A stretch of DNA of 64,000 bases, from assembly GCA_051886655.1 (NCBI GenBank), contig JBJEYJ010000086.1:38-64037 (forward strand), written 5' to 3'. Source of the DNA: Bacilli bacterium. Its GTDB lineage: Bacteria; Bacillota_I; Bacilli_A; RF39; UBA660. Under the pieces are notes generated by a model. It was not told the origin of the DNA. It ran no database searches and saw only the letters and a list, made by a program, of their open reading frames with translations. Shown here piece by piece: positions 46,326 to 63,118 of this stretch (position 1 is the stretch's first letter; every line of letters begins with the position of its first letter). Position numbers and translations under genes: made by a program.

Positions 46326-46336
46326 TAGATTATGTA

Positions 46337-47619: not shown

Positions 47620-47628
47620 AAAAAAGTA

Positions 47629-47657: not shown

Positions 47658-47684
47658 ATAATAAAGAAAGGGAAGGTGATAACA

Positions 47685-47915: not shown

Positions 47916-47941
47916 AAAATAAAAATTTTTTCAAAAAAGTA

Positions 47942-47970
47942 TTGACAAACAAAAGAAAAAGTAGTATAAT
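47942..47970 (+). promoter_or_regulatory. early promoter cassette
   Basis: TTGACA, 17 nt, TATAAT, followed by a long structured leader. Confidence 0.55.
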
Positions 47971-48058
47971 AAAAGTACAATAAGGGTAGGGTAAAAAGTT
48001 GATAATAACCTACGGTAGCAACTCATAAATAAAATTTTTGAAAGGTTAGGTGGTAGTT

Positions 48059-48427
48059 ATGGCAAACAAAGTAACTAAAAAAGAAAGATTTATGGAGTTA
48101 TTAAACATTAGAGAGGTAGCAGAAAATGCGGAAATGGTAGAGTTCATTAATCACGAACTAGAACTATTAAATAAAAAAAGTGCAAAAAGTGGTATGACAG
48201 CAAATCAAAAAGTAAATGAAGGACTAAAAGAGGTTATTACAGAACATTTAAAACTAGCAGGAAGAGCAATGACAATTACAGAACTACAAAGCGAAATTAA
48301 AGAAATTGCAGAATTAAGTAATCAAAAAGTAAGTGCATTACTAACACAACTTGTAAATACTAATGTAATCATTAGAGAGAAAGACAAAAAGACAACATTG
48401 TTCAAATACAACGATGAACAAATATAG
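48059..48427 (+). CDS. paralog family A member 1: small protein with a C-terminal winged-helix-like region (regulator?)
   Basis: Shares ELELL.KK.AKSGMTANQKVNE and a C-terminal SNQK.SALL..LV.T...KDKK.T.F block with 50242..50607 (plus strand) and 55363..55719 (minus strand). Confidence 0.6.
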   Translation: MANKVTKKERFMELLNIREVAENAEMVEFINHELELLNKKSAKSGMTANQKVNEGLKEVITEHLKLAGRAMTITELQSEIKEIAELSNQKVSALLTQLVNTNVIIREKDKKTTLFKYNDEQI

Positions 48428-48556
48428 ATAGAGGGCGAAAGCCCTTTATTTTTATGTTAAGTGCAGAAACAGATGTTTGGTTTCCAGTATGCAACTGATT
48501 ATGTAAACCAAAATTTTGTTCGCCGGCGCGTCGTGGATTGTGACGCGCCGTTTGAC

Positions 48557-48570
48557 AGAACAGTTGTTCG
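48557..48570. promoter_or_regulatory. LexA Cheo box AGAACAGTTGTTCG (perfect GAAC-N4-GTTC core)
   Basis: Intergenic, next to a GTTTACATAAT motif. Confidence 0.5.
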
Positions 48571-48630
48571 GTTTACATAATTTTTTTTCCAATTTTTTCC
48601 AGTTTACATAATCTGTTGACTCCTAAAACT

Positions 48631-48642
48631 GAACATCTGTTC
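48631..48642. promoter_or_regulatory. LexA Cheo box GAACATCTGTTC (perfect core)
   Basis: Lies 70 bp upstream of an early promoter -35. Confidence 0.5.
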
Positions 48643-48710
48643 ATACTAAATCTCGCAGATCAGCTTGGGAGTAAGGATCGCCGCATTATAAAGAATTTTT
48701 TAAAAAAATG

Positions 48711-48739
48711 CTTGACAAACACGCTATAAAGTAGTATAA
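48711..48739 (+). promoter_or_regulatory. early promoter cassette
   Basis: TTGACA, 17 nt, TATAAT. Confidence 0.6.
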
Positions 48740-48758
48740 TAATTATAGTAAAGGAAAG

Positions 48759-49223
48759 GTGATACAAATGAACTTGATTAAAAAATTTTATGTTAAACAA
48801 TTCGTACATTCTATTGATAAAAATATTAAAGTTAAATTTGGAAAAAATTTACAATGCGACATAGAAAATCAAACAATTTATGTAACTAATAAAACTGATA
48901 AAATAGATATTCAAACTTTTAAAGAGTATGTAAGAGAATTGAATAGTAAATGTTTTTTTAATACTTTTATTTTAGGAATATTACACGAAATAGGACATAT
49001 TTACACTTATGATGAAAGAGATGAGGAAGAATATTTTAGAGATAACGAACTATTAACACTACTTTTTCAAGAGAAAAAAATTGATGCCGTAGATTTTAAT
49101 AAATTCTATCTAAGATTAGAAATGGAGAAAAAAGCAACTCAATGGGCTATTGATTTTTCAATGTTAAATAAAGATTTTTGTAAAAAATATCAAAAAAAAT
49201 TAGGCAAAGAAATTTATAAATAG
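48759..49223 (+). CDS. HExxH metallopeptidase-like protein (ImmA/IrrE/DUF955-like?), 154 aa
   Basis: GILHEIGHIYTYDERDEEE: an HEIGH zinc-binding motif in a protein of about 150 aa, the size of ImmA-type anti-repressor proteases. Confidence 0.5.
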   Translation: MIQMNLIKKFYVKQFVHSIDKNIKVKFGKNLQCDIENQTIYVTNKTDKIDIQTFKEYVRELNSKCFFNTFILGILHEIGHIYTYDERDEEEYFRDNELLTLLFQEKKIDAVDFNKFYLRLEMEKKATQWAIDFSMLNKDFCKKYQKKLGKEIYK

Positions 49224-49226
49224 GGG

Positions 49227-49255
49227 TTGACAAAAGCCCCTAACTATGTTATAAT
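49227..49255 (+). promoter_or_regulatory. early promoter cassette
   Basis: TTGACA, 17 nt, TATAAT. Confidence 0.55.
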
Positions 49256-49281
49256 AGTATTATAGAAAGGAAGATGTAAAA

Positions 49282-49500
49282 ATGAGAAAAGATATTTTTA
49301 AAAATGCTAATCAAGTAAGAGCAACAGCCGAAGACTATAATGCAAAATGTTGTAAAAGATATAAAGGACAAGGAAAAATATTAAGAAGATACGCAAGACA
49401 CAAATTAAATGAACATGATAAAGAAGAAATAAGACAGGTATTAGCATTTCAAAAAAATATAAATTTTTACAAAATTAAAAAGGAAAGGAATTGATAATTA
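49282..49500 (+). CDS. basic small protein of about 71 aa
   Basis: Track ORF. Ends TGA then TAA (TGATAA). Confidence 0.45.
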
Positions 49501-49838
49501 TGAAAAAAGAACCAATGCAAATTTTGTATATTTTAAGAAATGGAGAAACAAATCAGTATAAAATAGGAATTACAGATAATCTAAATAGAAGATTATCTCA
49601 ACTACAAACTGGTTGTCCAGAAGAATTACAGATAATTAAATTATGGAAACATTATCAAAGAAACATAGTCAAAAGATATGAAAGAGTGTTGCATAGATAT
49701 TTTACAAAATGTGGTTGTAGAATAAGACCAAATGGAGAATGGTTTAATTTAAAACAAGTTGATATAAATTATTTATGTAAACCAAATACAATAGCAGAAC
49801 AAAATGAGATAATAGAAAATTTATTAGAAATGATGTAA
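49500..49838 (+). CDS. GIY-YIG / T5orf172-type domain protein, about 112 aa
   Basis: ILYILRNGETNQYKIGITDNLNRRLSQ matches the Y..L....-YKIG.T.N...R pattern. Confidence 0.5.
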   Translation: MKKEPMQILYILRNGETNQYKIGITDNLNRRLSQLQTGCPEELQIIKLWKHYQRNIVKRYERVLHRYFTKCGCRIRPNGEWFNLKQVDINYLCKPNTIAEQNEIIENLLEMM

Positions 49839-49872
49839 AGTGCGGGCTTCCGCACTTTTTCTACATAACTCT

Positions 49873-49990
49873 AGAACAAATGTTTCCACGAACGATCGTT
49901 TGGAGCCCGTTTCGCAGGTTTACATAATAACTTAACATTTTTCATTATGAAAAATTATTTTCAGATCGAACATTTGTACTCCTAAAACTC
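49873..49990. promoter_or_regulatory. cluster of three one-mismatch Cheo-like boxes (AGAACAAATGTTTC, CGAACGATCGTTTG, CGAACATTTGTACT) interleaved with GTTTACATAAT motifs
   Basis: Intergenic region upstream of the double promoter at 50045 to 50164. Confidence 0.35.
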
Positions 49991-50044
49991 GTCGCAGTTT
50001 ACATAATGTATTGCAAATAAAATAAAAATTTTTTTTAAAAAGTA

Positions 50045-50073
50045 TTGACTTTTTATAATAATTATAGTATAAT
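50045..50073 (+). promoter_or_regulatory. promoter (TTGACT, 17 nt, TATAAT)
   Basis: First promoter of a tandem pair. Confidence 0.5.
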
Positions 50074-50135
50074 AATTATAGTCAAAAGGAAATAGAAAAT
50101 CTTAAAAATTAATTTTAAGAAATTTTAAAAAACTC

Positions 50136-50164
50136 TTGACAAACAAAACAAAAAATGTTATAAT
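50136..50164 (+). promoter_or_regulatory. promoter (TTGACA, 17 nt, TATAAT)
   Basis: Second promoter of the tandem pair. Its leader contains a GAAC..GTTC hairpin. Confidence 0.55.
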
Positions 50165-50241
50165 AATTATAACAAAGGAAGATAAAAAACCTTGAGAACT
50201 TCCTGTAAAGGTTCATAAAAATAAAAATAAAAAATTGAAAG

Positions 50242-50607
50242 GTGGAATGTATTATGGCAAACAAAAAAACAAAAAGAGAATTATTTGGAGAAATCAGAGA
50301 AATTGTAGTAGGAAATGAAGAACTTGTAAACTTCATAGACCACGAATTAGAACTATTAGACAAGAAACACGCAAAAAGTGGAATGACAGCAAATCAAAAA
50401 GTAAATGCTGAAATAGTTGACAAATTATACAGTGCATTAGTTGAAGTTGAAACAGCCCTAACAATAAATGAAATCCAAGAACAATTTGATTTTACCAAAG
50501 AATTAAGTAATCAAAAAATAAGTGCATTATTAAAGAAATTAGTTGATACTGGAAAAGTTGAAAGAATAAAAGACAAAAAAGTTACAAGATTTCAAGCAAT
50601 AGTATAG
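50242..50607 (+). CDS. paralog family A member 2, 121 aa
   Basis: See 48059..48427. C-terminus is SNQKISALLKKLVDTGKVERIKDKKVTRF. Confidence 0.6.
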   Translation: MECIMANKKTKRELFGEIREIVVGNEELVNFIDHELELLDKKHAKSGMTANQKVNAEIVDKLYSALVEVETALTINEIQEQFDFTKELSNQKISALLKKLVDTGKVERIKDKKVTRFQAIV

Positions 50608-50661
50608 AGTAAGGGGCAAATGCCCCTACTCAAAAAAAAATAAAATTTTTTCAAAATACTA

Positions 50662-50690
50662 TTGACAAATTTTCTCAATAGTAGTATAAT
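50662..50690 (+). promoter_or_regulatory. early promoter cassette
   Basis: TTGACA, 17 nt, TATAAT. Confidence 0.55.
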
Positions 50691-51367: not shown

Positions 51368-52032
51368 AAAATACCTATATGCGATTTTTTCGTAGGTTTT
51401 GGGCTTTATGCTCTTTTTCTCTAGCTTCCTGAAACCTCTTAGGTTTACATAATAACTTTACAGGCGCGATTCCAGATTCTTTTAACCTACATCCGCGCAA
51501 TATGCAAAATTGCCATAGTTTCAGGCTTCTTTATGACTTGATTTTTTTAAAAATTTTTGATATAATACTAAAAAAACTTAAAATATTGCCGCATAAAACC
51601 AAAAATAAAGTTGACATTTTAAGCCAACTTTTTTCTTTAAAATCATTCTCATGCTTTCATATTTGCCCCATCTACTTTTAACTAAAATTTTAAACAAAAG
51701 CAAATGTATCTGCCTAATAAAAAATTTTACTTCCATCTCTATACTTTAACTAACTGGGGGCCGCGCTCTTTTTAAGGACAGACTTTCCATTATATCATCT
51801 TTATTATATTATATCAAATTTTTTATAAAATATCAACTTTAATAAAATTTGCCACAATTTTTTAAATTATTTTCCTTGATCCTTCCTATTTCACATGAGT
51901 GCAATAGTCAAGCAAAATGAGAAGCAAAATAATATCTCTAACTTTTACAAATTAAAAAAAGAAGAAAAAAATATTCTTTTCTTTTATTGCGGAGACGGAG
52001 ATACGAGGATCTGTTAACCCAGGTCGCCGCAT

Positions 52033-54439: not shown

Positions 54440-54605
54440 AAATAACCACCCTTCCTTTTTATTATTTATATAATAATTATATCATATTTTTTTTAAAAAG
54501 TCAATAGACAGGTTAAACCTATACACCAAAAATTTTTAAGGAGCGGCAACCGATGGTATATAGATACATTACTCACGAATAAAAAAGCGACATACATGCC
54601 GCCAG

Positions 54606-54917
54606 CTATTTATTAAATAATACTGTATTATATATTGAAGTTAAATATTGTTTTCCATCTTTACTCTTGATCTTAATTTTACCATCGTCTAAACTATTCC
54701 AAGTATCAACGTCAACTTCTATATATTCACTTCCTATTGTTATATATGCTTTTGTATATAATGTATTTACATTTGTCATATCCATATTACTTGTCATAGA
54801 TGGCGGAACCACTATAATATATGCTATTCCTCCAATAAGTATAAAAACTACTAATGCTATTGCAATAATTCCAATTGCATCTAACACATCATAATACATT
54901 CTAATTAACCTCCTCAT
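54606..54917 (-). CDS. membrane protein, 103 aa
   Basis: TM segment IIAIALVVFILIGGIAYIIVV. Confidence 0.55.
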   Translation of the reverse strand: MRRLIRMYYDVLDAIGIIAIALVVFILIGGIAYIIVVPPSMTSNMDMTNVNTLYTKAYITIGSEYIEVDVDTWNSLDDGKIKIKSKDGKQYLTSIYNTVLFNK

Positions 54918-55104
54918 ACATAATCAATAAAGTTAAGTATATTCCAGTTTCAGTCTTCTTTTCTATAATATTATCTTCTATTGTTGTAACAATAGTATCT
55001 GTACTCATTTTTATATCTATAATCTTTTTATCTAGCATCCATTTATTGATAACATCTTTTGCTTTAACATCATTTGGTGCTATTGTAAAATATTCTATTT
55101 TCAT
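54901..55104 (-). CDS. hypothetical protein of about 67 aa; start at MKIEY...
   Basis: Track ORF 54901..55155, with an internal ATG preceded by AAAGAAAGGAATG. Confidence 0.45.
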   Translation of the reverse strand: MKIEYFTIAPNDVKAKDVINKWMLDKKIIDIKMSTDTIVTTIEDNIIEKKTETGIYLTLLIMYEEVN

Positions 55105-55159
55105 ATTTTCATTCCTTTCTTTAATAAATAAGAGATAGAATGATTCCCCGCTCATCCTA

Positions 55160-55362
55160 TCTCTACCTAAGTTTGTGCTACTTGGGAAGCTGTTCTTTAT
55201 TTATCCTCGCATCCCCTAACGAGTTCCTATATTTTACTAGCTGTAACACTAGGAGGCTTTTACTATCGGTTAGAGACCATACCTCAACGGTATTATTTAT
55301 ACTCGACTCAAGTGTCCGCAGACCTTAAGCCCCGAGTTAGAGTGCGGCAATCGCCGCATCTC
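55160..55362 (-). ncRNA. GC-rich structured 3' region between two genes (GCGGCGATTGCCGC hairpin and others, ending in an 8-bp-stem terminator-like hairpin); candidate ncRNA
   Basis: About 200 nt with no ORF. GC content far above background. Shares a motif with 53640..53860. Confidence 0.3.
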
Positions 55363-55719
55363 TTATTCACTCTCTTTTATAGAGAATAATGTAACCTTTT
55401 TGTCTTTTACTCTTACTACTCTATTAGTATCTACTAATTTCTTTAAAAGAGCAGACATTTTTTGATTTGAGAAATCAGCTATTGTTTCATCTTCAGCTTG
55501 GATTTCAGCAACAGTAGCAGGTTTTCCTAATCTTGCTAATGCTTCATATACAACTTCTACTAATCCTTCATTTTCTTTTTGTGTTTTTGTTTGAGCAAAT
55601 TTTCTATTTGCTAATCTTTCAATTTCTTTTTCGCAGAATTCTACTGCTCCTTGTTCTCCAGCCTCAACAGCTAAATCTCTTAAAACTCCTAAATAATCTT
55701 TTTTTGTCATTTTTTCCAT
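55363..55719 (-). CDS. paralog family A member 3, 118 aa
   Basis: C-terminus SNQKMSALLKKLVDTNRVVRVKDKKVTLF. Preceded by two tandem TTGATT, 17 nt, TATAAT promoters (55773..55801 and 55858..55886). Confidence 0.6.
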   Translation of the reverse strand: MEKMTKKDYLGVLRDLAVEAGEQGAVEFCEKEIERLANRKFAQTKTQKENEGLVEVVYEALARLGKPATVAEIQAEDETIADFSNQKMSALLKKLVDTNRVVRVKDKKVTLFSIKESE

Positions 55720-55857
55720 AATAAATCACCTCATTTAACCTTTCTTTATATTTTTATTTTTTCTATACTTATATTATATAATAATTTTTTTATATAATCA
55801 ATTATTATTTCTTTAAGGTGCATAGAAACCTTTTTTTCTTTTTCTTTTGTTAATATA

Positions 55858-55886
55858 ATTATATAATATTTTTTTTATATAATCAA
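55858..55886 (-). promoter_or_regulatory. module-2 promoter (TTGATT, 17 nt, TATAAT on the minus strand)
   Basis: One copy of a roughly 45-bp cassette repeated at least 11 times. Confidence 0.5.
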
Positions 55887-55899
55887 CTTAGTGGTACTT

Positions 55900-56376
55900 A
55901 TGTTATTTTACAAGTCCTATATGCCCCACTAAGTATTATGTAGGCGACTTGGTATTCCTTTCGCACTTTAAGGTATGCTGCCAGGGTTACTCAGGCTACC
56001 TTTGATATATATTAGCCTATCAAAAAAATAGTTACCAACTACAACCACGAGGAGGTTTATATCGTATGTAGTTATCTATAGATGGAAGCTTTGCTCACTG
56101 GTTTACCAACCTTTATATATAAGAGCGGCGGATGAGGAAATAATAATTTAATTTTTAGAAAGGAATTTTTACTATAACAGACCGCCGCATAATTAGGAAG
56201 GGGGGCAAAGAGTGTTTTCACCAAATCTATAAACTATCACCAAATTTCTTCGGTGAGATGAGACTCGAACTCATCTTCTCTCTTACCAATAGGATTTTAT
56301 AAGCTCTTGCCTTTTGTTCCTATCTTCAACGATTATCTCTAAACCGTCAACATTTATATTTTTCTTTTCTTTTTCT
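55900..56376 (-). ncRNA. non-coding transcript candidate of about 470 nt, driven by the module-2 promoter at 56383..56411. GC-rich hairpins and a tRNA T-arm-like element (GATGAGTTCGAGTCTCATC).
   Basis: No ORF longer than about 12 codons on the minus strand. Consensus promoter at its 5' end. Multiple stems (GCGGCGG..CCGCCGC, CTTAGTGG..CCACTAAG). Confidence 0.35.
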
Positions 56377-56382
56377 ATATAT

Positions 56383-56411
56383 ATTATATAATAATTTTTA
56401 AAAATTATCAA
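56383..56411 (-). promoter_or_regulatory. module-2 promoter (TTGATA, 17 nt, TATAAT)
   Basis: Seen directly. Confidence 0.5.
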
Positions 56412-56575
56412 TTAAATCGGCGGGAGGAGGCTTTTCACCTTACCACTCTGGGAATTATGGATTTCACAACCTTGTTTAAGCTTGATCAGCTCTAGGAGTT
56501 GGTCCTCCAAGTGTTCCATTGATTCACTTCATTTATTATCTTCACACCTATATACTTTGGCTATCCCGCTAATAT

Positions 56576-56947
56576 TTAATCCATATCTATACCTCTATAA
56601 TAATGTATTATATCACAAGAATAATCATCTCCGCTTTCACCAAATACTTTTCTTTCTTCAATATCTGATAGCTCTTCTCCTAATCTTACAAAACTATATG
56701 GTTTACCATTCTCTTGTATCTCTATTAAATAATTTTCTATATATTGCACATCTTCATTATCTTGATACCATTTAACCCAATCCCAGTATAAAATAACTAC
56801 ATTATCACTAGGATTTCTAACTTCACCATAATCTATTAAATCTATAACATCTTGCCTATTATTTATTTTTGCTCTCTCAACTAATTCCTCATAATCACTT
56901 TTTTTCATTGCTATTGCAACTTCTGATCTATATCCCATAACAATCAC
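56576..56947 (-). CDS. hypothetical protein, 123 aa
   Basis: Track ORF. Promoter at 56966..56994. Confidence 0.55.
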   Translation of the reverse strand: MIVMGYRSEVAIAMKKSDYEELVERAKINNRQDVIDLIDYGEVRNPSDNVVILYWDWVKWYQDNEDVQYIENYLIEIQENGKPYSFVRLGEELSDIEERKVFGESGDDYSCDIIHYYRGIDMD

Positions 56948-56994
56948 TTTCCTTTCTATACTTATATTATATAATATTTTTTAATAATTATCAA

Positions 56995-57201
56995 TTATCT
57001 TTTTTGTACTATTTCAAATTTATCTTCACTTTTAATAATTTCTGCATTCTCATAGTCTTCAAGTACTCTTCTTTGCATTTCATCAATAGCTCCAATTCCT
57101 TCTATAATTTCACCTGCAATTCTATCAATTACTTTCATATACATACCTTCTTTCTTTTCTTTTTCTATATATATTATATAATAATTTTTAATTATTATCA
57201 A
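56995..57201 (-). CDS. hypothetical protein, 68 aa
   Basis: Track ORF. Confidence 0.4.
   Translation of the reverse strand: MIIIKNYYIIYIEKEKKEGMYMKVIDRIAGEIIEGIGAIDEMQRRVLEDYENAEIIKSEDKFEIVQKR
57173..57201 (-). promoter_or_regulatory. module-2 promoter (TTGATA, 17 nt, TATAAT)
   Basis: Overlaps the 3' end of the upstream gene. Confidence 0.5.
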
Positions 57202-57551
57202 TAAAGAAAATAATCTTCATCATTTATAGTATAAGTATAGTTTCTTATTTTTAGTTTTTTGGCTATTGCGGCAACCGCCTTATTTAGATAAAATTTTCTT
57301 TCTTTTTCATTTTTAAATCTAGAATCGCTTTCTATGCCTAAATATAATAATAGTTCTTTACCATAGTCTGGATAATAGCATGTAAATCCATGATTTCTTA
57401 ATCTTAAATATCCTACTTGTTCATCATCTAAAAAAACATCATATTGCTCTGGACATGCATAACTAGTTAATTTCAATAAAAAAATACTTTTATTCTTTTT
57501 TCTCATCTTTATTTCCTTTCTTTGTAAAAAATACAGTATGATAATCTTCAT
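57198..57551 (-). CDS. hypothetical protein, 117 aa; ends TGA then TAA
   Basis: Track ORF. Confidence 0.5.
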   Translation of the reverse strand: MKIIILYFLQRKEIKMRKKNKSIFLLKLTSYACPEQYDVFLDDEQVGYLRLRNHGFTCYYPDYGKELLLYLGIESDSRFKNEKERKFYLNKAVAAIAKKLKIRNYTYTINDEDYFLY

Positions 57552-57735
57552 TAGAATAATAATATATCAATCCATAATCAAATTGAACTTTGTGTTTTAT
57601 GGTATCTATATTAACTAATTTATGTCCTCTAAACCAATATTCATTTTCTTTATAAAAATCTTTAACATCTTTGTAATTCTTTAATTGCTTTAGCACTCTA
57701 TATAAACTTATTCTTTCCATAAAACACACCTCCAA
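57490..57735 (-). CDS. hypothetical protein, 81 aa
   Basis: Track ORF. Overlaps the start of 57198..57551 in another frame. Confidence 0.45.
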   Translation of the reverse strand: MEVCFMERISLYRVLKQLKNYKDVKDFYKENEYWFRGHKLVNIDTIKHKVQFDYGLIYYYSNEDYHTVFFTKKGNKDEKKE

Positions 57736-58095
57736 TTAAACTAATTTATTAAAACAATTCAAATAATAATCTTGTTTTGGATCATACCTTTCTGGATCAT
57801 TATGATATTTACTCCAAAAATCAGAACGAACTATAAAATCATTTACTTCTTCATAAAATTCACTAACTAAAAACTGTGAGCTTCCCCATATCCATCCTTT
57901 TGAAAATAAAGTGTCTCTATTAGGTTCTAATCTATCTTTTAATTCATAAAGATAATAGAAACAACCTTCATAATCTCCTCTTTGTCTAGCAACTTGTTTA
58001 ATCCAGAATCTATCCCCAAAAACATCTTTTTTTAACTCTCTATTTAATCGTTTTGCTATTCTGTTTATTTTTTTATCAACTTTATTTTTAGCCAT
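57736..58095 (-). CDS. hypothetical protein, 119 aa
   Basis: Track ORF. AAGGAGTG RBS. Promoter at 58129..58157. Confidence 0.55.
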   Translation of the reverse strand: MAKNKVDKKINRIAKRLNRELKKDVFGDRFWIKQVARQRGDYEGCFYYLYELKDRLEPNRDTLFSKGWIWGSSQFLVSEFYEEVNDFIVRSDFWSKYHNDPERYDPKQDYYLNCFNKLV

Positions 58096-58165
58096 AGTTA
58101 AACACTCCTTTCTTTATTTTCTATATATATTATATAATAAATTTTATAAATTATCAATAAATATA

Positions 58166-58456
58166 TTATTCAAGAAACAAATATCCTATTTCTAATGGGA
58201 TAATTTTTAAATGATATGCATAACATTCATTTATATTTTTAGGGGCTATAAAAGATTCAACTACAGCCCCTATTTCTTTTATTACATCAAAAGTGTTATC
58301 TTTTTCATATGGAAATATAGTAGCTTTAAGAGCGGCAACCGCATCTTCATAAGTATTATATGGACTTATAAAAGATTGTCTTATAATTTCATTTGAATTT
58401 TCTAAAAACATATAACATTCTGCTTTTATACCAAATACATTAAGCATTCTCATCAT
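58166..58456 (-). CDS. hypothetical protein, 96 aa
   Basis: Track ORF. Overlaps the upstream gene by 17 nt. Confidence 0.5.
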   Translation of the reverse strand: MMRMLNVFGIKAECYMFLENSNEIIRQSFISPYNTYEDAVAALKATIFPYEKDNTFDVIKEIGAVVESFIAPKNINECYAYHLKIIPLEIGYLFLE

Positions 58457-59990
58457 CCTCCATATTTGTAATTATATTCCAATTACATAAATAATTTGTT
58501 GCATATGGAGAAATTGTTGTAGTAATTCCTTCTGTTAATGCTGACTCCACTTGTTTATCTACTATTTTTTTAATCTCAGTATTAAGATCTTCAGTAGTAA
58601 AATGTGTAACTAAGCTATCATTATTTTCTGATTCTTCTTCCATTTCCTCTTTATATCTAGGACAATCCTTACAATGGTCATAATTACTACACATAACTCC
58701 ATCATCTATATAACGAAAACTTGGATTATCACATTCTTCATTATCTAAATCACATTGAGGATGTTCATCTTGCCAATATCCACAATCAGAGCAATTACAT
58801 TCACAACATGAAGTACATCCTTCTCTACAATAGTCATCAGCTAAATCACACCAATATCTCATATTAAAATGTTCTGCTACAAACCCTTCTCCATTATAAT
58901 CTGCTTCTGCTTCATCATCTGGATATGTTGGTGGTAAAAAGTCTCCACATCCGCAAGGACATAGTATTTCTTCATTAAATACTGTAAATTCTGTTTCATT
59001 TTTTGTATCTTTTAAAGTCCAAATTCTTTCATCAGAATACTCAGAATATCCATATCCATGTTCTCTATAACAATTGCAATCCCAATTCTTTTTCCATTTA
59101 TTTTCTTTATTATGACATTTTGCTACTACTTCTTCAACTATTTCTCTTAATTCTTTTTCAAAATCTTCATCATAATCTTTGCCAGGATATATACAGTTGA
59201 AATGTATTGATGTCATATTTGGAGATAAAGCAATCCATTGACGCATTCTTTTATATCTTATATTTTTAAATTTATAAGTATCATATAAATCAAATTTTCC
59301 TTCATTATTCCAAACATAAGTAATTAAGCTAGCATTATCTAAAACTGCGGCAAGGCATCCATCTGCATGAGAGTCATCTCTATTTAATTCTAGTCTATAA
59401 CAAGAGGTCCAATCATATGGATTTTCTGAAGCTAACATCATATCAACTGGATCGATAGAAATAGTGTAATTAGCTTTTACCTTTTGATTTTCAAAAATCT
59501 TTCCTATTTCTGTTACTAACTCATCTGGTGCATTTAAACAAGATTTAAAAAAATGTGTAATTGAACTTCCATCTAATCTATATTGTGGAAATAGATCTTT
59601 TATAGCGTCTCTTACTTCATATCCAATTTTGTATGCTTCTATTTTATTATTTATTTGTCTTGTGAAACCTTTTAACCAAAGTGCAAAAATTGGAAATTTT
59701 TTAGAAATATCATTTATTTCATTTTCAATATCTTGTCTTTGTCTATTATATTCAAAAGCAACATCTAATCTAGTTTTATTACCAAGCATTTTATAAAAAT
59801 TATATTTATTTGTAGCCCAAGTAATTAAATAACTTTTTATTACTGCATCTGGAATTTTAGAAATATTTAATCCAGAAAATTGAGCTATACATTTTGTAAA
59901 ATCTGGAATATTAACTTCCTTTAACATTGATATATATTTTTCTGATTCCGTTCCTTCCATATTATCTATTAAATCACAAGTTTTTAACAT
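58440..59990 (-). CDS. large hypothetical protein, 516 aa, with a Cys-rich (about 25 Cys) acidic C-terminal region
   Basis: Uninterrupted ORF. CPCGCGD...CREGCTSCCECNCSDCGYW...CDNPS...CKDCPRY cluster. Promoter at 60039..60067. Confidence 0.6.
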   Translation of the reverse strand: MLKTCDLIDNMEGTESEKYISMLKEVNIPDFTKCIAQFSGLNISKIPDAVIKSYLITWATNKYNFYKMLGNKTRLDVAFEYNRQRQDIENEINDISKKFPIFALWLKGFTRQINNKIEAYKIGYEVRDAIKDLFPQYRLDGSSITHFFKSCLNAPDELVTEIGKIFENQKVKANYTISIDPVDMMLASENPYDWTSCYRLELNRDDSHADGCLAAVLDNASLITYVWNNEGKFDLYDTYKFKNIRYKRMRQWIALSPNMTSIHFNCIYPGKDYDEDFEKELREIVEEVVAKCHNKENKWKKNWDCNCYREHGYGYSEYSDERIWTLKDTKNETEFTVFNEEILCPCGCGDFLPPTYPDDEAEADYNGEGFVAEHFNMRYWCDLADDYCREGCTSCCECNCSDCGYWQDEHPQCDLDNEECDNPSFRYIDDGVMCSNYDHCKDCPRYKEEMEEESENNDSLVTHFTTEDLNTEIKKIVDKQVESALTEGITTTISPYATNYLCNWNIITNMEDDENA

Positions 59991-60077
59991 AATACCGACC
60001 TCCTACAATCTTATTATATTATTTTCTTTTCATATATATATTATATAATAATTTTAATAAAAAATCAAAAAGGATTA

Positions 60078-60461
60078 TTAATCCTTTTTCAAGTCTAATA
60101 ATCCAAATTTAGTATTTGTATGTCCCCATATAAATTCATTAAAATCATTATGCGAAAAATCTATCTGATTTAAATCTATTAACAATAATACTTGAGGTTG
60201 TATATGTTCTACACCAGTAACTTTCCCAGTTTCATATTCGTATTCACTTATTGGGCGGCGGCTAGTGATATCAAGCATATAAAATCCAGTTCTTTTTTCT
60301 TCTAATTTAGTTATATCATATCCAGAATCTTCTACTACTGTTTTTAAAGTTTCATTTCCATAAAACCCAACTTCTGTACTAAAATAATATCTTTCATGAT
60401 ATACTAATATTGCTATCCAATTACTTTTTTTATTTATTTCCAATATTTGCAACCTCCCCAT
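60078..60461 (-). CDS. hypothetical protein, 127 aa
   Basis: Track ORF. TAA stop. Confidence 0.5.
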   Translation of the reverse strand: MGRLQILEINKKSNWIAILVYHERYYFSTEVGFYGNETLKTVVEDSGYDITKLEEKRTGFYMLDITSRRPISEYEYETGKVTGVEHIQPQVLLLIDLNQIDFSHNDFNEFIWGHTNTKFGLLDLKKD

Positions 60462-60667
60462 TCTTTTTCTTCATTTATAAGATTTCCATATATTTGTTGT
60501 AATTTATAAAATTCTTCATCAGAAATTAATTCCATTTCATCATTAAAATTTGTATCTTGAAATTTTTGAATAATCTCAGAAAAAATCTGTTCTATTCTTT
60601 GTAATTCTTTTCTTCTTTCTGTTCTTCTAAAATCACAATAAATAATATTATTTTTCATAGCATCCAC
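60434..60667 (-). CDS. hypothetical protein, 77 aa
   Basis: Track ORF. Promoter at 60705..60733. Confidence 0.45.
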   Translation of the reverse strand: MDAMKNNIIYCDFRRTERRKELQRIEQIFSEIIQKFQDTNFNDEMELISDEEFYKLQQIYGNLINEEKEWGGCKYWK

Positions 60668-60756
60668 CCCTTAAAATAAATGTTTAATATTTTATTACAT
60701 TTATATTATATAATAATTTTATATAATAATCAATAAAAAATAGAAGCATTTAGCTT

Positions 60757-62301
60757 CTATTTTATTACTTCATATCTTTCACTCATTAGTTTTTCATACA
60801 TTATATCTATTCCTTTTACTCCACGAATTATTTGTTCAAATAAAACTGGTGTGCATCCTGATACAAATGATACATTTGGTCCAGAATCAAGAATAGTATT
60901 ATCTCTCGCATCAACATTCCAATATACTAGATGTGGAAGTATTAAACCATCTTCCGCCCATTCTTGTCTTATTTTTTCCATTTCTGTTGCTGTATTTTCT
61001 TTTGTCCAACAATCGTCATCATCATCATACCAATATCTTCCTGAACCAGATCCACTATCTATTTCCATATCAGAAATTACTATAAGTGTAGTAGGAATGT
61101 CTTCTTCTCTTATGCCATCTTTAAGTATCATATTTTTTAGCATATTAAACACTGCTGGTAAATTAGTATTTTCACATTGATTTCTTCTATATACTCTTGC
61201 TACTTTATCTGCAAAATCTACTCCTTCAAATTTTATTAATTCAGGATGTTGTGAGAATGTAATAAAATAATCTTTGAAAGGACCGCCTATTCTTTCAGCG
61301 CAGTACATACCTAATGATAATGCAACATCTATTGGCTTAGTAGAACCATTATAAGAATCCATACTTCCAGATGTATCTATAATTGTCATTATTTTACAAG
61401 CCTCTCCTTTTAAATAATCTGGTAAATTTTCCCAATATTTTTCTACCATTTTTCTATCAGTGTCAGACATATCTATATCATCATTCCAATATCCAATATT
61501 ATTAGTTACTTTATTTACTACTTCATATGGGAATAAAGTCTTAGCATTTACTTTTGTATCTTTATCTTTTGCAAAAGTTTCATATTTTTTAGCAATTATA
61601 TCTCTTCTTGCAAAAGCATTCTTATATATTAATCCAGCTTTTGAAGGAATTTTGTCAAATTCAATTTCGTCCCATCTATTTTCACTCATTAATCTTTCAA
61701 CAATATTTATTTTCTTTCTTAATATAGCTAATACTTTTCTATATTGTTTATGAGTCATCTTTAAGTATTTTCTTACTTTATTTGCCATTTTTTTAGTGTG
61801 ATGTGCAGAAGCATTTTCAGATGGTAACCATTTTCCTAAAAGTGAAGGTGTTTTGCTTTCTAAGTCAAGAGCTAATTGTTCTCTTACTAAAAATAAAGCA
61901 TAATCTTCCATTTTAGTTCCATCAGTTGCATATAATAAATCATCCCATCTGCCATACTCAGATAATTGATTTAAGTTTCTTTTTGCGGCATCTGGATAAT
62001 TATCGCATAACCATTTAAAACATATACGGAAAAATCTTCTTTCGCCTTGACCTCCACGAATATCTCTTAAATAAAATAAACATTTTAAAGCCATAATTTC
62101 ATCTTCTTCTATTGCATTTTTAAACAATAGAATGCAATCAGCTTCACTTCTTTTTCTATAAGCTCCACCAAGAGCAAACATATCATATACAGCTGAGTTA
62201 GTTGCTTTATGAGCTACTGCTCCATTTTCTGTATATTTATAATTTGTTATGTCTTTTAAACTGTTTATAAAACTATTACAATTTTCAAACATTTTTTCCA
62301 A
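60757..62301 (-). CDS. TROVE-like (DUF2828-type) plus von Willebrand A domain protein, 514 aa; Ro60-like architecture
   Basis: C-terminal vWA MIDAS motif IIDTSGSMDS. The N-terminal ~300-aa region preceding the vWA MIDAS motif matches the domain order of Ro60/TROVE and DUF2828 proteins (TROVE-like assignment by architecture only; HHpred needed). TAG stop followed by a hairpin terminator. Promoter at 62356..62384. Confidence 0.55.
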   Translation of the reverse strand: MEKMFENCNSFINSLKDITNYKYTENGAVAHKATNSAVYDMFALGGAYRKRSEADCILLFKNAIEEDEIMALKCLFYLRDIRGGQGERRFFRICFKWLCDNYPDAAKRNLNQLSEYGRWDDLLYATDGTKMEDYALFLVREQLALDLESKTPSLLGKWLPSENASAHHTKKMANKVRKYLKMTHKQYRKVLAILRKKINIVERLMSENRWDEIEFDKIPSKAGLIYKNAFARRDIIAKKYETFAKDKDTKVNAKTLFPYEVVNKVTNNIGYWNDDIDMSDTDRKMVEKYWENLPDYLKGEACKIMTIIDTSGSMDSYNGSTKPIDVALSLGMYCAERIGGPFKDYFITFSQHPELIKFEGVDFADKVARVYRRNQCENTNLPAVFNMLKNMILKDGIREEDIPTTLIVISDMEIDSGSGSGRYWYDDDDDCWTKENTATEMEKIRQEWAEDGLILPHLVYWNVDARDNTILDSGPNVSFVSGCTPVLFEQIIRGVKGIDIMYEKLMSERYEVIK

Positions 62302-62384
62302 TTCAAATCACCTAATTATCTCTGTCGAGATACCTTTCTTATTTTTTCTATATATATTATATCAAAAATTTTTATAGAAATCAA

Positions 62385-62957
62385 TTAGATTTCATATTCT
62401 TCATCAATTAATTGTTGTAATTCTCTCTTTTTCATCGCACGAGTTGGATTTTTTAATCTTTGATATTTTTCTGATTTTTGTTTTTCTTTTCTTTTTTCTT
62501 CGATGAAAGCATTTTGTTCTGGTGTATTATCATATAATGGTATTACTAAATATTCTGCGGCGGTCGTAGGTTCAATGCTTGTTGAATCAAGAATCTCTCT
62601 ATTTCCGCGCATTGCAATTATATTTATTTTAAATTCTCTTAACATATCATTTATTTTTTCTTCATCATCTCTTGGTAAACTATGTGCGTATTGATGTGCA
62701 ATCTCAGCAATAACTGCACAATTCTCTTCTGTTGTTTCTCCACCTTCACTAATGTGCTTTAAATGATGAACTGTTAATTGATAACTAATAGCTTTACCCT
62801 TATATCTTTTTTCTTCAACAAAAATCCTAAAAGTTTTTATACCACCCATAGCTTCTATTCTTTCTGCAATATGAGCTCTCTCAAAAAAGCACCCTTTTCC
62901 ATAGATAGTTTGTAATTTTCTTTTCATTTTTTGATTTTTTGCATTATTTTTACTCAT
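62385..62957 (-). CDS. HNH endonuclease, 190 aa
   Basis: LTVHHLKHISEGGETTEENCAVIAEIAHQYAH (an H-N-H motif). Promoter at 62996..63024. Confidence 0.7.
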   Translation of the reverse strand: MSKNNAKNQKMKRKLQTIYGKGCFFERAHIAERIEAMGGIKTFRIFVEEKRYKGKAISYQLTVHHLKHISEGGETTEENCAVIAEIAHQYAHSLPRDDEEKINDMLREFKINIIAMRGNREILDSTSIEPTTAAEYLVIPLYDNTPEQNAFIEEKRKEKQKSEKYQRLKNPTRAMKKRELQQLIDEEYEI

Positions 62958-63118
62958 TAGTTATCAAATCCTTTCTTTTTAATAACTTTATTTATATTAT
63001 ATAAAATTTTATTTTAAAAATCAATCTATATACTTATAGGTCAAGTTACAAAAATCTTATAATAGATTTTTTCATAGTTTTTTAGTGAATAAAAAATAAG
63101 AAAGGCAGGTATTATTTT

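What the first reader, a model, noticed from the sequence alone, without database searches (positions are those of the whole stretch)
54440..63030. Second conserved promoter cassette on the minus strand (TATATATTATATAATAATTTTTAANAATTATCAAT, read as TTGATA/TTGATT, 17 nt, TATAAT) upstream of at least 11 small genes
Copies lie at about 54470, 55773, 55858, 56383, 56966, 57173, 58129, 60039, 60705, 62356 and 62996, with an inward-facing copy at 51800. The monocistronic small genes are mostly ORFans. Two are membrane proteins, with an HNH nuclease, a TROVE-vWA protein and a Cys-rich protein. This looks like a second, distinct early or middle regulon.
Basis: seen in the sequence. Interest (0 to 1): 0.55.

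Follow-up and report, generated by a model that had tools for sequence, protein, structure and literature searches.

The report
Early promoter array of a recoded phage
Eleven near-identical bacterial-type promoters drive a block of small early genes and RNA genes in a large gut or rumen phage whose late genes read the TGA stop codon as an amino acid. This is a familiar kind of phage early-gene module, in an interesting phage.

Summary
The window has 15 TTGATW-N17-TATAAT matches where 0.46 are expected by chance.

They form a sequence class separate from the plus-strand TTGACA array. In a syntenic relative (41-76% protein identity), 8 of the 11 sites have same-strand counterparts at the same gene junctions, 7 of them with a TTGAT-type -35.

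The window is a large phage. Its late genes (1-42.6 kb) need TGA read as sense. The promoter-dense arms contain no in-frame TGA. I therefore read the array as a standard-code early regulon, recognised by a sigma-70-type holoenzyme, most likely the host's.

- Nine of the 11 sites precede a ribosome-binding site and start codon. One (56411) heads a 490-nt stretch without a gene. One (55886) is the upstream half of a tandem pair.
- Most units hold one gene, but four hold two or three.
- Relatives encode their own sigma-70-like factor inside this regulon. Whether the two classes fire at different times is untested.

Verdict: real, a new member of a known kind (closest to the SPO1 host-takeover module). 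Several RNA observations came up on the way.

The parts
62996..63024 (-). Promoter P1: TTGATT-17-TATAAT, upstream of the HNH gene
   Evidence: The start codon is 38 nt after the -10. Ortholog L089 P5304.
62385..62957 (-). HNH endonuclease gene (190 aa)
   Evidence: Pfam HNH 25.7 bits, cut-off 21.4. 69% identical ortholog in L089.
62356..62384 (-). Promoter P2: TTGATT-17-TATAAT, upstream of the Ro60-like gene. The 63-nt leader holds a hairpin, GGUAUCUC-GACA-GAGAUA.
   Evidence: A TTGATT promoter lies 63-89 nt upstream of the ortholog in 11 of 26 loci.
60757..62292 (-). Ro60-like (DUF2828 + DUF7788/vWA) RNA-binding protein gene, 511 aa from the ATG
   Evidence: Pfam. phrog_850 E 2e-116. AlphaFold model with pLDDT 78, whose top 13 PDB matches are all Ro60/TROVE proteins. 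Terminator-like hairpin at 60763-60737.
60705..60733 (-). Promoter P3: TTGATT-17-TATAAT. Two-gene unit, 60434-60658 and 60078-60461.
60040..60068 (-). Promoter P4: TTGATT-17-TATAAT. Unit holds the Cys-rich 516-aa gene (58440-59990) and a 96-aa gene (58166-58456).
   Evidence: Ortholog L089 P8061. The Cys-rich protein is 41-61% identical in L001, L024, L049, L064, L066 and L089.
58129..58157 (-). Promoter P5: TTGATA-17-TATAAT. Three-gene unit: 57736-58095, 57490-57720 and 57198-57509.
   Evidence: Ortholog L089 P10028, also TTGATA.
57173..57201 (-). Promoter P6: TTGATA-17-TATAAT, upstream of a short ORF of about 48 aa (56995-57143)
   Evidence: Identical to P8 over 39 nt. No counterpart in L089.
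56966..56994 (-). Promoter P7: TTGATA-17-TATAAT, upstream of a 120-aa gene (56576-56938). A 164-nt GC-richer non-coding tail follows (56575-56412).
   Evidence: Ortholog L089 P10954.
56383..56411 (-). Promoter P8: TTGATA-17-TATAAT, with no protein gene downstream
   Evidence: Positional ortholog L089 P11372 also heads a unit without a gene, about 150 nt long.
55887..56376 (-). Transcribed region without a gene, a putative ncRNA. It holds a tRNA-like module in permuted order (about 56330-56188), a long GC-clamped hairpin (56188-56124) and a sub-threshold HDV-like ribozyme match (56072-56003).
   Evidence: No ribosome-binding site and start codon. GC 33-42% and GC skew about 0, against 22-30% and about -0.5 in coding flanks. 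Rfam HDV-F-prausnitzii 38.8 bits, gathering score 44. Folds. No homolog found.
55858..55886 (-). Promoter P9: TTGATT-17-TATAAT, the upstream member of a tandem pair 85 nt from P10
   Evidence: Tandem promoters precede 21 of 28 genes of this family in relatives. Orthologs L089 P11552/P11628.
55773..55801 (-). Promoter P10: TTGATT-17-TATAAT, upstream of the 118-aa family gene (55363-55719)
   Evidence: phrog_19455. Paralogs at 48050-48427(+) and 50242-50607(+).
55159..55227 (-). Conserved structured RNA motif in the region 3' of the 118-aa gene. It lies directly before the terminator-like hairpin 55164-55131 and two small genes without their own promoter (54901-55107, 54606-54899).
   Evidence: Model R2, 82 bits. 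Covariation 0.523 against 0.131 in shuffles, 0 of 500. Terminator scan. The surrounding 241 nt fold with z = -4.3.
54476..54504 (-). Promoter P11: TTGACT-17-TATAAT with TG before the -10, a hybrid type. It precedes the 133-aa family gene (54038-54439), the last gene of the arm.
   Evidence: Paralog at 50715-51125(+) ends the opposite arm. Terminator-like hairpin 54603-54586 lies just upstream.
51808..51836 (-). Outlying class-2-type promoter (TTGATA-17-TATAAT). It faces a plus-strand TTGATT promoter at 51538-51566.
42689..42717 (+). Class-2-type promoter on the plus strand (TTGATT...TATAATATATATAGAAAA), upstream of a 330-aa nucleotidyltransferase-like gene. A second copy is at 43611-43639.
   Evidence: weight-matrix score 41.6. 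phrog_388 E 3e-10.
44666..50690 (+). Convergent arm: 11 class-1 promoters of the form AAA..TTGACA-17-(g)tagTATAAT-AATTATAG

Best explanation
**What it is.** The eleven cassettes are working sigma-70-type promoters. Each has a -35 of TTGATT or TTGATA, an A/T-only 17-nt spacer, a perfect TATAAT, and a conserved ATATATAG(A)n start region. Together they form the leftward arm of two convergent early-gene arrays in a large phage.

**The phage.** Relatives sit on contigs of 104-200 kb. The host is probably a low-GC gut or rumen member of the Bacillota. The late genes are translated with TGA read as an amino acid, probably Trp.

**How it works.** RNA polymerase carrying a primary-type sigma factor starts about 7 nt after each TATAAT. 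The host's own sigma must do this at the onset of infection. The result is short units:
- nine protein-coding units holding 15 small genes, among them an HNH nuclease, a Ro60-like RNA-binding protein, a Cys-rich protein and multi-copy small-protein families;
- one unit without a protein gene, a putative ncRNA;
- one tandem booster promoter.

Because these genes contain no in-frame TGA, the host's unmodified translation machinery can read them. This would be the programme that runs before the code switch.

**In relatives.** The same promoter type drives tRNA arrays, tmRNA, ROOL RNA and a phage sigma-70-like factor. One relative's array also holds a UCA-anticodon tRNA.

**Shown and inferred.**
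- Shown: the motif, its excess over chance, its orientation and distance to start codons, its conservation at orthologous positions, and the split in codon usage.
- Inferred: promoter activity, dependence on the host sigma, and early timing.
For: **The motif and its excess**
- The 11 copies and their anatomy.
- 15 observed against 0.46 expected.
- A weight matrix finds 13 sites and 0 in random windows.

**Position**
- Nine of 11 lie 27-63 nt upstream of a ribosome-binding site and ATG.

**Strand rule in relatives**
- In 273 kb around Ro60-like orthologs there are 59 TTGATW-N17-TATAAT sites on the gene strand and 0 on the other.
- A TTGATT promoter lies 63-89 nt upstream of the ortholog in 11 of 26 loci.

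**Synteny**
- L089 (41-76% amino-acid identity) has same-strand promoters at 8 of the window's 11 positions, 7 of them TTGATT/A and one TTGACA.
- These include the unit without a gene and the tandem pair.

**Second relative**
- L001 has the same convergent layout: 14 TTGATT/A sites and one TTGACA on one strand, facing 7 TTGAC(A/T) sites and one TTGATA on the other.

**Class separation**
- Flank identity is 0.54 within a class and 0.42 between classes.
- Nearest-neighbour classification is right for 25 of 26 sites.

**Early status**
- Late genes were identified by PHROGs as tail, endolysin, portal and large terminase.
- Read with code 4, they carry 98 in-frame TGA against 33 TGG.
- The minus-arm genes carry 0 TGA and 37 TGG.
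- The endolysin profile match spans residues 11-381, across 5 TGA codons.

**Host sigma at onset**
- In every relative where I could check, the phage sigma-70-family gene lies behind a TTGATT/A promoter.
- In seven of them the promoter is 63-71 nt from the sigma start codon.

**RNA cargo in relatives**
- L001 holds 19 tRNAs including one with a UCA anticodon, a tmRNA and ROOL.
- L085 and L087 hold more than 20 tRNAs each, interleaved with TTGATT promoters.
Against: - There are no transcript data. Promoter activity, start sites and timing are inferred from sequence.
- In 27% GC DNA, loose sigma-70-like matches are no commoner than chance: 93 found against 93.5 expected. Only the strict class is significant.
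- TTGATT departs from TTGACA at two positions. A modified or phage-encoded specificity is not excluded.
- The phage sigma gene was not found in this 64-kb window, and the rest of the genome is unseen.
- The scan found few intrinsic terminators, so unit boundaries are uncertain and read-through is likely.
- Identical 39-nt stretches between neighbouring cassettes show recent copying or gene conversion. This inflates the apparent conservation within the window.
Confidence: 0.72

Rival explanations
1. The TTGATT class is read mainly by a phage-encoded sigma-70-family factor, not the host's. It would then be a middle regulon, or one that amplifies itself, while the TTGACA class is the true host-read early class.
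For: - Relatives encode a 281-aa sigma factor with regions 1.2, 2, 3 and 4 (Pfam).
- Eight of the 61 stretches retrieved with the class-2 promoter pattern hold this sigma gene.
- The class departs from the TTGACA consensus at the same two -35 positions across a whole clade.
Against: - The sigma gene itself lies behind TTGATT/A promoters in all 11-12 relatives, seven times at -63 to -71. Something else must read the class first.
- Its region 4.2 recognition helix (SRERIRQIEEKALRK) and region 2.4 (YWIRQAITKAI) keep the residues that E. coli sigma-70 uses to read TTGACA and TATAAT (sequence; the comparison rests on my own knowledge). No altered specificity is evident.
- No sigma gene lies in this window.
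Confidence: 0.18
2. The two 'classes' are not regulatory classes. They are two lineages of one cassette, kept uniform within each arm by unequal recombination or gene conversion. All are simply strong constitutive promoters with the same timing.
For: - P57201 and P56411 are identical over 39 nt.
- Each class is largely confined to one arm.
- Public assemblies of this phage break at the cassettes: L077 starts at about window 56390.
- Paralogous genes occur in both arms, as expected after a duplication.
Against: - The T at -31/-30 and the A/T spacer persist at orthologous positions in phages whose proteins are only 41-66% identical and whose spacers have diverged. That points to selection rather than recent copying.
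- L001 keeps the same two-class convergent layout.
- Class-2 copies also occur on the plus strand at 42689 and 43611.
Confidence: 0.3
3. The cassettes are not promoters. They would be repeats with another role, such as recombination or mobile-cassette junctions like the PeSL elements of T4-type phages, or binding sites for a phage protein.
For: They are repeated, A/T-rich, flank small variable genes and coincide with assembly breaks. Gene content between cassettes differs between the window and L089: the 48-aa ORF unit is absent and the unit without a gene differs in length.
Against: - All have a perfect TATAAT and an exact 17-nt spacing.
- Co-orientation with genes is strict, 59 to 0.
- The distance to start codons is constant and leader-like.
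- Only three have an adjacent stem-loop.
- A role in gene shuffling would add to promoter function, not replace it.
Confidence: 0.05

Closest known systems
Host-takeover module of Bacillus phage SPO1 (genes 37-60)
   Same: A compact block of many small early genes, each or nearly each with its own strong sigma-A-type promoter and strong ribosome-binding site, organised in short operons (PMC6873191). The window has 15 genes plus one RNA unit behind 11 promoters in 9 kb.
   Different: - No sequence similarity to SPO1 genes was seen.
- The -35 is TTGATT or TTGATA rather than TTGACA.
- The array also carries RNA genes.
- The phage recodes TGA in its late genes.
- Whether the array lies in a terminal redundancy could not be tested. 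Many related arrays lie near contig ends, which could equally reflect assembly breaks.
- SPO1 uses dedicated phage sigma factors with unrelated promoter motifs for middle and late genes (own knowledge). The phage sigma seen here in relatives is primary-like.
Phages that reassign a stop codon (code 4 or code 15) and are thought to start infection in the standard code
   Same: - Late, structural and lysis genes need TGA read as sense, while an early block is free of in-frame TGA.
- Relatives carry tRNA arrays, one with a UCA-anticodon tRNA.
- A nucleotidyltransferase-like gene is present. tRNA nucleotidyltransferase genes are reported to be enriched in theta-ribozyme-bearing phages (PMC10879173).
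   Different: - That literature describes codon usage and tRNAs, not the promoter architecture of the standard-code block.
- No suppressor tRNA lies in this window.
- The model that early genes stay compatible with the standard code comes from my own knowledge of Borges et al. 2022, which I did not read here.
Promoter-early stem-loop (PeSL) cassettes of T4-type phages
   Same: Repeated early-promoter cassettes separate small, variable, mostly uncharacterised genes. Gene content between cassettes varies among relatives.
   Different: Most cassettes here lack the adjacent stem-loop: only three terminator-like hairpins were found. No evidence for cassette-mediated shuffling was gathered. The comparison rests on my own knowledge of Arbiol et al. 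2010.
Bacterial Ro60 (Rsr) with YrlA-type Y RNAs
   Same: - The array encodes a protein with a Ro60-like fold.
- 4.4 kb downstream, an RNA without a gene can be drawn in the order the paper describes: basal stem, V, T, capped acceptor-like stem, D (PMC4201824).
- It has a UUCGAGU T-loop, a GG-containing D-loop, UUAU at the start of V, and GUUGAAG where YrlA has GNCGAA(N)G.
   Different: - The protein is DUF2828, not Pfam TROVE.
- The RNA is not adjacent to the gene.
- No Rfam family matched.
- ARAGORN does not call the un-permuted construct a tRNA.
- A model built from it finds no homolog in 1.04 Mb of related loci.
- Its folding energy is only 1.8 sd below shuffles.

Membership tests
Sigma-70 (primary sigma) -35/-10 promoter | -10 hexamer close to TATAAT | tested here: met
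   6 of 6 in all 11 copies
Sigma-70 (primary sigma) -35/-10 promoter | -35 hexamer close to TTGACA | tested here: met
   4 or 5 of 6. TTGATT in 6 copies, TTGATA in 4, TTGACT in 1. The first four bases, TTGA, are invariant.
Sigma-70 (primary sigma) -35/-10 promoter | Spacer of 17 +/- 1 nt | tested here: met
   Exactly 17 nt in all 11
Sigma-70 (primary sigma) -35/-10 promoter | Lies upstream of, and co-oriented with, a transcription unit | tested here: met
   9 of 11 are 27-63 nt from a ribosome-binding site and start codon. One heads an RNA unit and one is a tandem partner. Strand ratio in relatives is 59 to 0.
Sigma-70 (primary sigma) -35/-10 promoter | Transcription starts there with the holoenzyme | not testable with these tools
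   Needs 5'-end mapping or in vitro transcription
SPO1-type early host-takeover module | Cluster of small genes in short operons with strong promoters and ribosome-binding sites | tested here: met
   Description of the family in PMC6873191.
SPO1-type early host-takeover module | Expressed early, by unmodified host polymerase | not testable with these tools
   Indirect support only: standard-code codon usage and the phage sigma gene lying downstream of the class
SPO1-type early host-takeover module | Location in the terminal redundancy; products shut off host functions | not tested
   The genome ends are unknown for this window. Most products have no family.
   Model with pLDDT 78. Top 13 Foldseek PDB matches are all Ro60, Rsr or TROVE proteins over the full length. 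E-values run from 4e-6 to 1e-3 and query TM-scores from 0.37 to 0.49.
   Pfam gives DUF2828 + DUF7788, and VWA_2 only at E 0.007. No sequence match in the PDB.
YrlA-type Y RNA | tRNA-like domain in the order V, T, acceptor-like stem-loop, D, closed by a basal stem that carries GNCGAA(N)G | tested here: inconclusive
   - The layout can be drawn at -29.7 kcal/mol against a minimum free energy of -32.9.
- The motif differs by one base (GUUGAAG).
- No Rfam match.
- ARAGORN is negative on the un-permuted form.
- With a relaxed threshold it calls only a weak 'permuted tmRNA'.
YrlA-type Y RNA | Encoded next to the Ro60 gene and conserved with it | tested here: not met
   It lies 4.4 kb away in the same array. 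No homolog was found near 26 Ro60-like orthologs.
HDV-like / theta ribozyme | Score at or above the Rfam gathering threshold | tested here: not met
   HDV-F-prausnitzii 38.8 bits against 44, E 4.4e-5 in a 2.3-kb search. No match in the gathering-level scan.
HDV-like / theta ribozyme | Nested P1, P2, P3 and P4 helices with the catalytic C in J4/2 | tested here: inconclusive
   The Rfam alignment pairs P1, P3 and P4 and keeps GGCUAA. P2 (GAUAUA/UAUAUC) is visible by eye. The first nucleotide is A rather than the usual G.
HDV-like / theta ribozyme | Cleavage site abuts the 3' end of a tRNA (theta subgroup, PMC10879173) | tested here: not met
   No tRNA anywhere in the window, or upstream of 56072 with relaxed settings

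The most novel reading that the evidence does not exclude
The TTGATT promoter class marks the 'pre-switch' programme of a clade of TGA-recoding phages of gut and rumen Bacillota. This would be a host-readable, standard-code regulon whose cargo is largely an RNA toolkit:
- tRNA arrays, which in one relative include a UCA-anticodon tRNA;
- tmRNA and ROOL;
- a Ro60-like protein, possibly with a tRNA-mimicking partner RNA;
- an HDV-like ribozyme;
- a newly seen motif next to a terminator;
- the phage's own primary-like sigma factor.

Together with the TTGACA class and a TGA-containing helix-turn-helix gene (52798-53508), which could only be translated after the switch, this would form a transcription-translation timer for the lytic cycle.
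Probability: 0.25. Interest if true: 0.7.

Novelty: new member of a known kind. Interest (0 to 1): 0.4.

Why it matters
Dense arrays of strong early promoters are a standard feature of large lytic phages, so the finding itself is unsurprising.

Its value lies in the context. It gives a sequence definition of the standard-code early regulon in an uncultured clade of TGA-recoding phages. The signature is TTGAT(T/A)-17-TATAAT-ATATATAG.

With that signature, early genes, RNA genes and the phage sigma factor can be located in metagenomic contigs. The order of events around the genetic-code switch also becomes testable.

The promoter set is a ready list of candidate strong promoters for low-GC gut Bacillota.

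Tried and rejected
**Searches for the phage itself**
- Megablast of the 10-kb region against 50,697 phage records found nothing.
- tblastn of a 589-aa late-gene fragment found nothing.

**RNA and tRNA scans of the window**
- Rfam at gathering level gave no match.
- ARAGORN found no tRNA.

**Homologs of the unit without a gene (56376-55887)**
- blastn against the fetched loci gave only a spurious 40-nt A/T-rich match.
- A degenerate T-arm/acceptor pattern in viral contigs gave 0 hits.
- An exact 26-mer in metagenome contigs gave 0 hits.
- A structure model built from the single sequence found nothing below E = 0.7 in 1.04 Mb. The weak hits look like tRNA pairs.

**Is it a hidden or permuted tRNA?**
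- ARAGORN was negative on six un-permuted constructs.
- It was negative on the region at default settings and with introns allowed. At a relaxed threshold without introns it was also negative.
- At a relaxed threshold with introns allowed, it returned only implausible tRNAs with 230-380-nt introns. The tmRNA search at that threshold returned weak 'permuted tmRNA' calls.
- I rejected the idea that this is the missing suppressor tRNA.

**Other dead ends**
- The 120-aa protein (56576-56938) has no relatives in viral contigs.
- Exact-protein look-ups returned only fragments of the same phage assembly, so the genome could not be extended beyond the window.
- A sequence search of the Ro60-like protein against the PDB found nothing. 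Only the fold comparison worked.
- 'DUF2828' appears in five papers of the held library. None is a study of the domain's function, judging by titles and abstracts.

**A host that uses code 4 (rejected)**
- TGA and TGG are split between late and early genes rather than mixed.
- Of the 15 minus-arm genes, one ends in TGA; the rest end in TAA or TAG.

Full report
**1. The observation**

The -35 starts are at 63024, 62384, 60733, 60068, 58157, 57201, 56994, 56411, 55886, 55801 and 54504. An outlying copy starts at 51836.

All have a 17-nt spacer and a perfect TATAAT. Ten carry TTGATT or TTGATA and one carries TTGACT.

TTGATW-N17-TATAAT occurs 15 times in the window against 0.46 expected. By contrast, the loose sigma-70 scan is at chance level in this 27% GC DNA, with 93 found and 93.5 expected. 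Only the strict class means anything.

The conserved block runs from about -38 to +15: ttaTTGATwaTT..AAAAAtTATTATATAATATAtATAGAAAA. A weight matrix with a leave-one-out threshold finds the 11 copies plus 42689(+) and 52033(+). It finds none of the plus-strand TTGACA sites and nothing in 20 random windows.

**2. Two classes**

The plus-strand array (44666-50690) has a different consensus: an A/T tract, then TTGACAAA...gtagTATAATAATTATAG. With the 12 hexamer positions removed, flank identity is 0.54 within each class and 0.42 between them. Nearest-neighbour assignment is right for 25 of 26 sites.

Class 2 is not strictly a minus-strand feature. Copies at 42689 and 43611 are on the plus strand.

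**3. What the cassettes precede**

Nine of the 11 have a Shine-Dalgarno sequence and a start codon 27-63 nt after the -10. The units are:
- HNH nuclease;
- the Ro60-like protein;
- two small genes;
- the Cys-rich 516-aa protein plus a 96-aa gene;
- three small genes;
- a short ORF of about 48 aa;
- a 120-aa gene;
- the 118-aa family gene, followed by a structured RNA and two small genes;
- the 133-aa family gene.

That makes 15 genes, and four units hold more than one. 'Monocistronic' is therefore only partly right. The scan found terminator-like hairpins at just three places in the array.

P56411 has no gene behind it. The next 490 nt lack a ribosome-binding site and start codon. They have 33-42% GC and a GC skew near zero, while the coding flanks have 22-30% GC and a skew near -0.5.

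P55886 is followed only by P55801, 85 nt further on. This is not an orphan. Of 28 genes of the same 118-aa family in this and related phages, 21 have two to four consensus promoters in tandem, usually about 85-100 nt apart.

**4. What kind of genome this is**

The left 42.6 kb is a minus-strand block. Its reading frames are broken by TGA under the standard code and become long ORFs when TGA is read as sense. PHROG matches identify:
- a tail protein;
- an endolysin, whose match spans residues 11-381 across five TGA codons;
- a portal protein;
- a large terminase.

These late genes hold 98 in-frame TGA and 33 TGG. The genes of the minus-strand array hold no in-frame TGA and 37 TGG. For example, the Cys-rich protein has 11 TGG and 0 TGA, and the Ro60-like protein has 10 and 0.

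The window is therefore part of a large phage that reassigns TGA, probably to Trp, in its late genes. The two promoter-dense arms are its standard-code genes. In such phages the standard-code block is expected to be the part expressed before the suppressor acts (own knowledge of Borges et al. 2022; see also PMC10879173). This supports 'early' independently of the promoter sequence.

Related phage contigs are binned with MAGs named Anaeroplasmatales, Bacilli, Mollicutes, Erysipelotrichaceae, Oscillospiraceae and others from animal guts. That is only a weak pointer to a low-GC host in the Bacillota.

**5. Conservation**

The cassette pattern occurs in 61 stretches of viral contigs, most from contigs of roughly 50-200 kb.
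- **L001** is a 136-kb contig whose Cys-rich protein is 44% identical. It has the same convergent layout: 14 TTGATT/A sites and one TTGACA on one strand, facing 7 TTGAC(A/T) sites and one TTGATA on the other.
- **Ro60-like orthologs.** Around 26 orthologs (36-66% identity, 273 kb), TTGATW-N17-TATAAT occurs 59 times on the gene strand and never on the other. A TTGATT promoter sits 63-89 nt upstream of the ortholog in 11 loci.
- **L089** is fully syntenic with 62957-54038 at 41-76% protein identity. It has same-strand promoters at 8 of the window's 11 positions, 7 of them TTGATT/A and one TTGACA. These include the unit without a gene and the tandem pair, even though the sequence of that unit is unrelated.

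This argues for selection on the promoters and on the T at -31/-30. Recent copying alone does not explain it, although copying also happens: P57201 and P56411 are identical over 39 nt.

**6. Who reads them**

Relatives encode a 281-aa sigma-70-family protein with regions 1.2, 2, 3 and 4. The window does not contain one.

In every relative where I could check, the nearest same-strand promoter upstream of this gene is TTGATT/A. In seven of them it lies 63-71 nt from the start codon. The sigma gene is thus a member of the TTGATT regulon, so the regulon must first be read by something already in the cell, namely the host holoenzyme.

The phage sigma keeps the region 4.2 and 2.4 residues that E. 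coli sigma-70 uses for TTGACA and TATAAT (sequence; the comparison is from my own knowledge). It probably reads the same kinds of sites, perhaps sustaining them later.

I therefore favour host-read early promoters (confidence 0.72 for the whole statement). A phage-sigma-dependent class is the main rival. Nothing I could run addresses whether the two classes differ in timing.

**7. Cargo**

In relatives the TTGATT class drives RNA genes:
- L001 holds 19 tRNAs, one with a UCA anticodon, plus a tmRNA and a ROOL RNA at 152 bits.
- L085 and L087 hold more than 20 tRNAs each, interleaved with TTGATT promoters.
- L081, L082 and L084 hold ROOL and tRNAs. L081 and, weakly, L084 hold a tmRNA, and L084 an OLE-like fragment.

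The window has no tRNA, but it does have RNA units.

The 'TROVE-vWA' label is right at the level of fold. Pfam sees DUF2828 + DUF7788. A model with pLDDT 78 has Ro60, Rsr and TROVE structures as its top 13 PDB matches, over the full length.

**8. The unit without a gene**

Between 56330 and 56188 the RNA can be drawn as a basal stem enclosing four elements:
- a variable hairpin;
- a T-arm (AGAUGAG-UUCGAGU-CUCAUCU);
- an acceptor-like stem capped by GAAA;
- a D-like hairpin with GG in its loop.

This is the V-T-AS-D order described for YrlA-type Y RNAs (PMC4201824). The drawing costs -29.7 kcal/mol against a minimum free energy of -32.9.

Support is weak:
- z = -1.8;
- no Rfam match;
- ARAGORN is negative on un-permuted constructs;
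- no homolog anywhere I searched.

Further on, 56072-56003 matches the HDV-F-prausnitzii ribozyme model at 38.8 bits (gathering score 44, E 4e-5). The match pairs P1, P3 and P4 and keeps the GGCUAA junction. It starts with A instead of G and has no tRNA next to it (PMC10879173).

I report both as leads, not as identifications.

**9. A by-product with good support**

A 69-nt RNA motif lies 3' of the 118-aa gene, at 55227-55159. It consists of:
- hairpin CUCG-UUAGGGGAUG-CGAG;
- the linker GAUAAAUAAAGAACAGC;
- a second hairpin with an AGCA(U/C)AA loop.

It recurs in 32 places (17 distinct sequences) in phage-like contigs from gut and rumen metagenomes. Six of the seven pairs of the second helix show compensatory changes. 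The covariation score is 0.523, against 0.131 in shuffles (0 of 500) and at most 0.126 in slid controls. No Rfam family covers it.

In the window and in L089 it stands directly before an intrinsic terminator. That terminator is followed by small genes with no promoter of their own. The motif therefore looks like a conditional terminator.

**10. Verdict**

The finding is real and the promoter reading is well supported by comparative evidence. It is a new member of a known kind, closest to the SPO1 host-takeover module (PMC6873191). What raises it above routine is the setting: a TGA-recoding phage clade whose early regulon is rich in RNA genes.

Noticed in passing
window 1-42600 (minus strand) compared with 42689-63024: The late genes (tail, endolysin, portal, large terminase) need TGA read as sense: 98 in-frame TGA against 33 TGG. 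The two promoter-dense arms have none. The phage reassigns TGA only in its late module. No suppressor tRNA lies in the window.
   Followed up: yes
window 55159-55227 (minus strand); also L064 3638-3707, L089 12121-12191, L079, L081, L082, L116-L143: A conserved 69-nt structured RNA motif with no Rfam family. It has two hairpins joined by UAAAUAAAGAACAGC, with strong covariation in the second helix. It usually stands directly before an intrinsic terminator and is linked to the 118-aa gene family. It may be a conditional terminator.
   Followed up: yes
window 56188-56330 (minus strand): A tRNA-like module in permuted order (variable hairpin, T-arm with UUCGAGU loop, GAAA-capped acceptor-like stem, D-like hairpin) enclosed by a long basal stem. 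It resembles YrlA-type Y RNAs or a two-piece tmRNA. It lies in the same array as a Ro60-like protein gene. No homolog was found and the statistical support is weak.
   Followed up: partly
window 56003-56072 (minus strand): A sub-threshold match to the HDV-like ribozyme family of F. prausnitzii: 38.8 bits against a gathering score of 44, E 4.4e-5. The conserved GGCUAA junction is present, but there is no adjacent tRNA and the first nucleotide is A.
   Followed up: partly
window 52798-53508 (minus strand): A 236-aa gene with an N-terminal helix-turn-helix-like sequence and four in-frame TGA codons at Trp-like positions. It sits between the two standard-code arms. It could only be made after the code switch, so it is a candidate timer or regulator. 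It has no Pfam family.
   Followed up: partly
L064 4442-5284; L066; L001 14494-15327; L003, L009, L019, L033, L050, L053, L061, L079: Related phages encode a 281-aa primary-like sigma-70-family factor with regions 1.2-4. It always lies behind a TTGATT/A promoter. None is present in the 64-kb window.
   Followed up: yes
window 48050-48427(+), 50242-50607(+), 55363-55719(-); 50715-51125(+), 54038-54439(-): Each convergent arm ends with the same pair of gene families, the 118-aa family and then the 133-aa family. The paralogs sit under different promoter classes. L001 has the same mirror-like layout.
   Followed up: partly
window 55773-55886 (minus strand), 50045-50164 (plus strand); L068, L071, L072, L085, L089: Tandem promoters, two to four copies usually about 85-100 nt apart, are a conserved feature upstream of genes of the 118-aa family (21 of 28 genes). 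This holds in both promoter classes.
   Followed up: yes
window 51538-51566 (plus strand) and 51808-51836 (minus strand): Two class-2-type promoters face each other about 270 nt apart, across a short ORF (51578-51736, minus strand) and a terminator-like hairpin (51631-51607). The arrangement suggests overlapping sense and antisense transcripts.
   Followed up: no
window about 51330-51375 (minus strand); L063 3714-3742, L065, L067, L068, L070-L076 (antisense strand): A recurring element in relatives: TTGACAaaa...tgtggTATAAT on the strand opposite the array, followed at once by 'aaattttcgg' and a GC-rich hairpin. The window has a similar hairpin (ttcggctcaaaggcgctccacgccgagccg) in the GC-rich gap between the arms.
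   Followed up: no
window 56412-56575 (minus strand): A GC-richer 164-nt non-coding tail after the 120-aa gene, closed by GCGGGA...UCCCGC. Its folding energy is not distinctive (z = -1.3), and it is absent from the syntenic relative L089.
   Followed up: partly
L085 12090-13631: In one relative the Ro60-like gene is followed, after a 95-aa gene, by a Band_7 (SPFH) protein and a set of NAD-salvage genes. All lie behind TTGATT promoters.
   Followed up: no
loci L006-L062 (positions within their contigs): Many stretches holding the class-2 cassette lie within a few kb of a contig end. Either the arrays sit near genome termini, as in SPO1, or assemblies break at the repeated cassettes.
   Followed up: no
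window 42689-43681 (plus strand): A 330-aa nucleotidyltransferase-like gene (phrog_388) sits behind a class-2 promoter. It may be a tRNA CCA-adding enzyme, a gene type reported to be enriched in phages with theta ribozymes.
   Followed up: no
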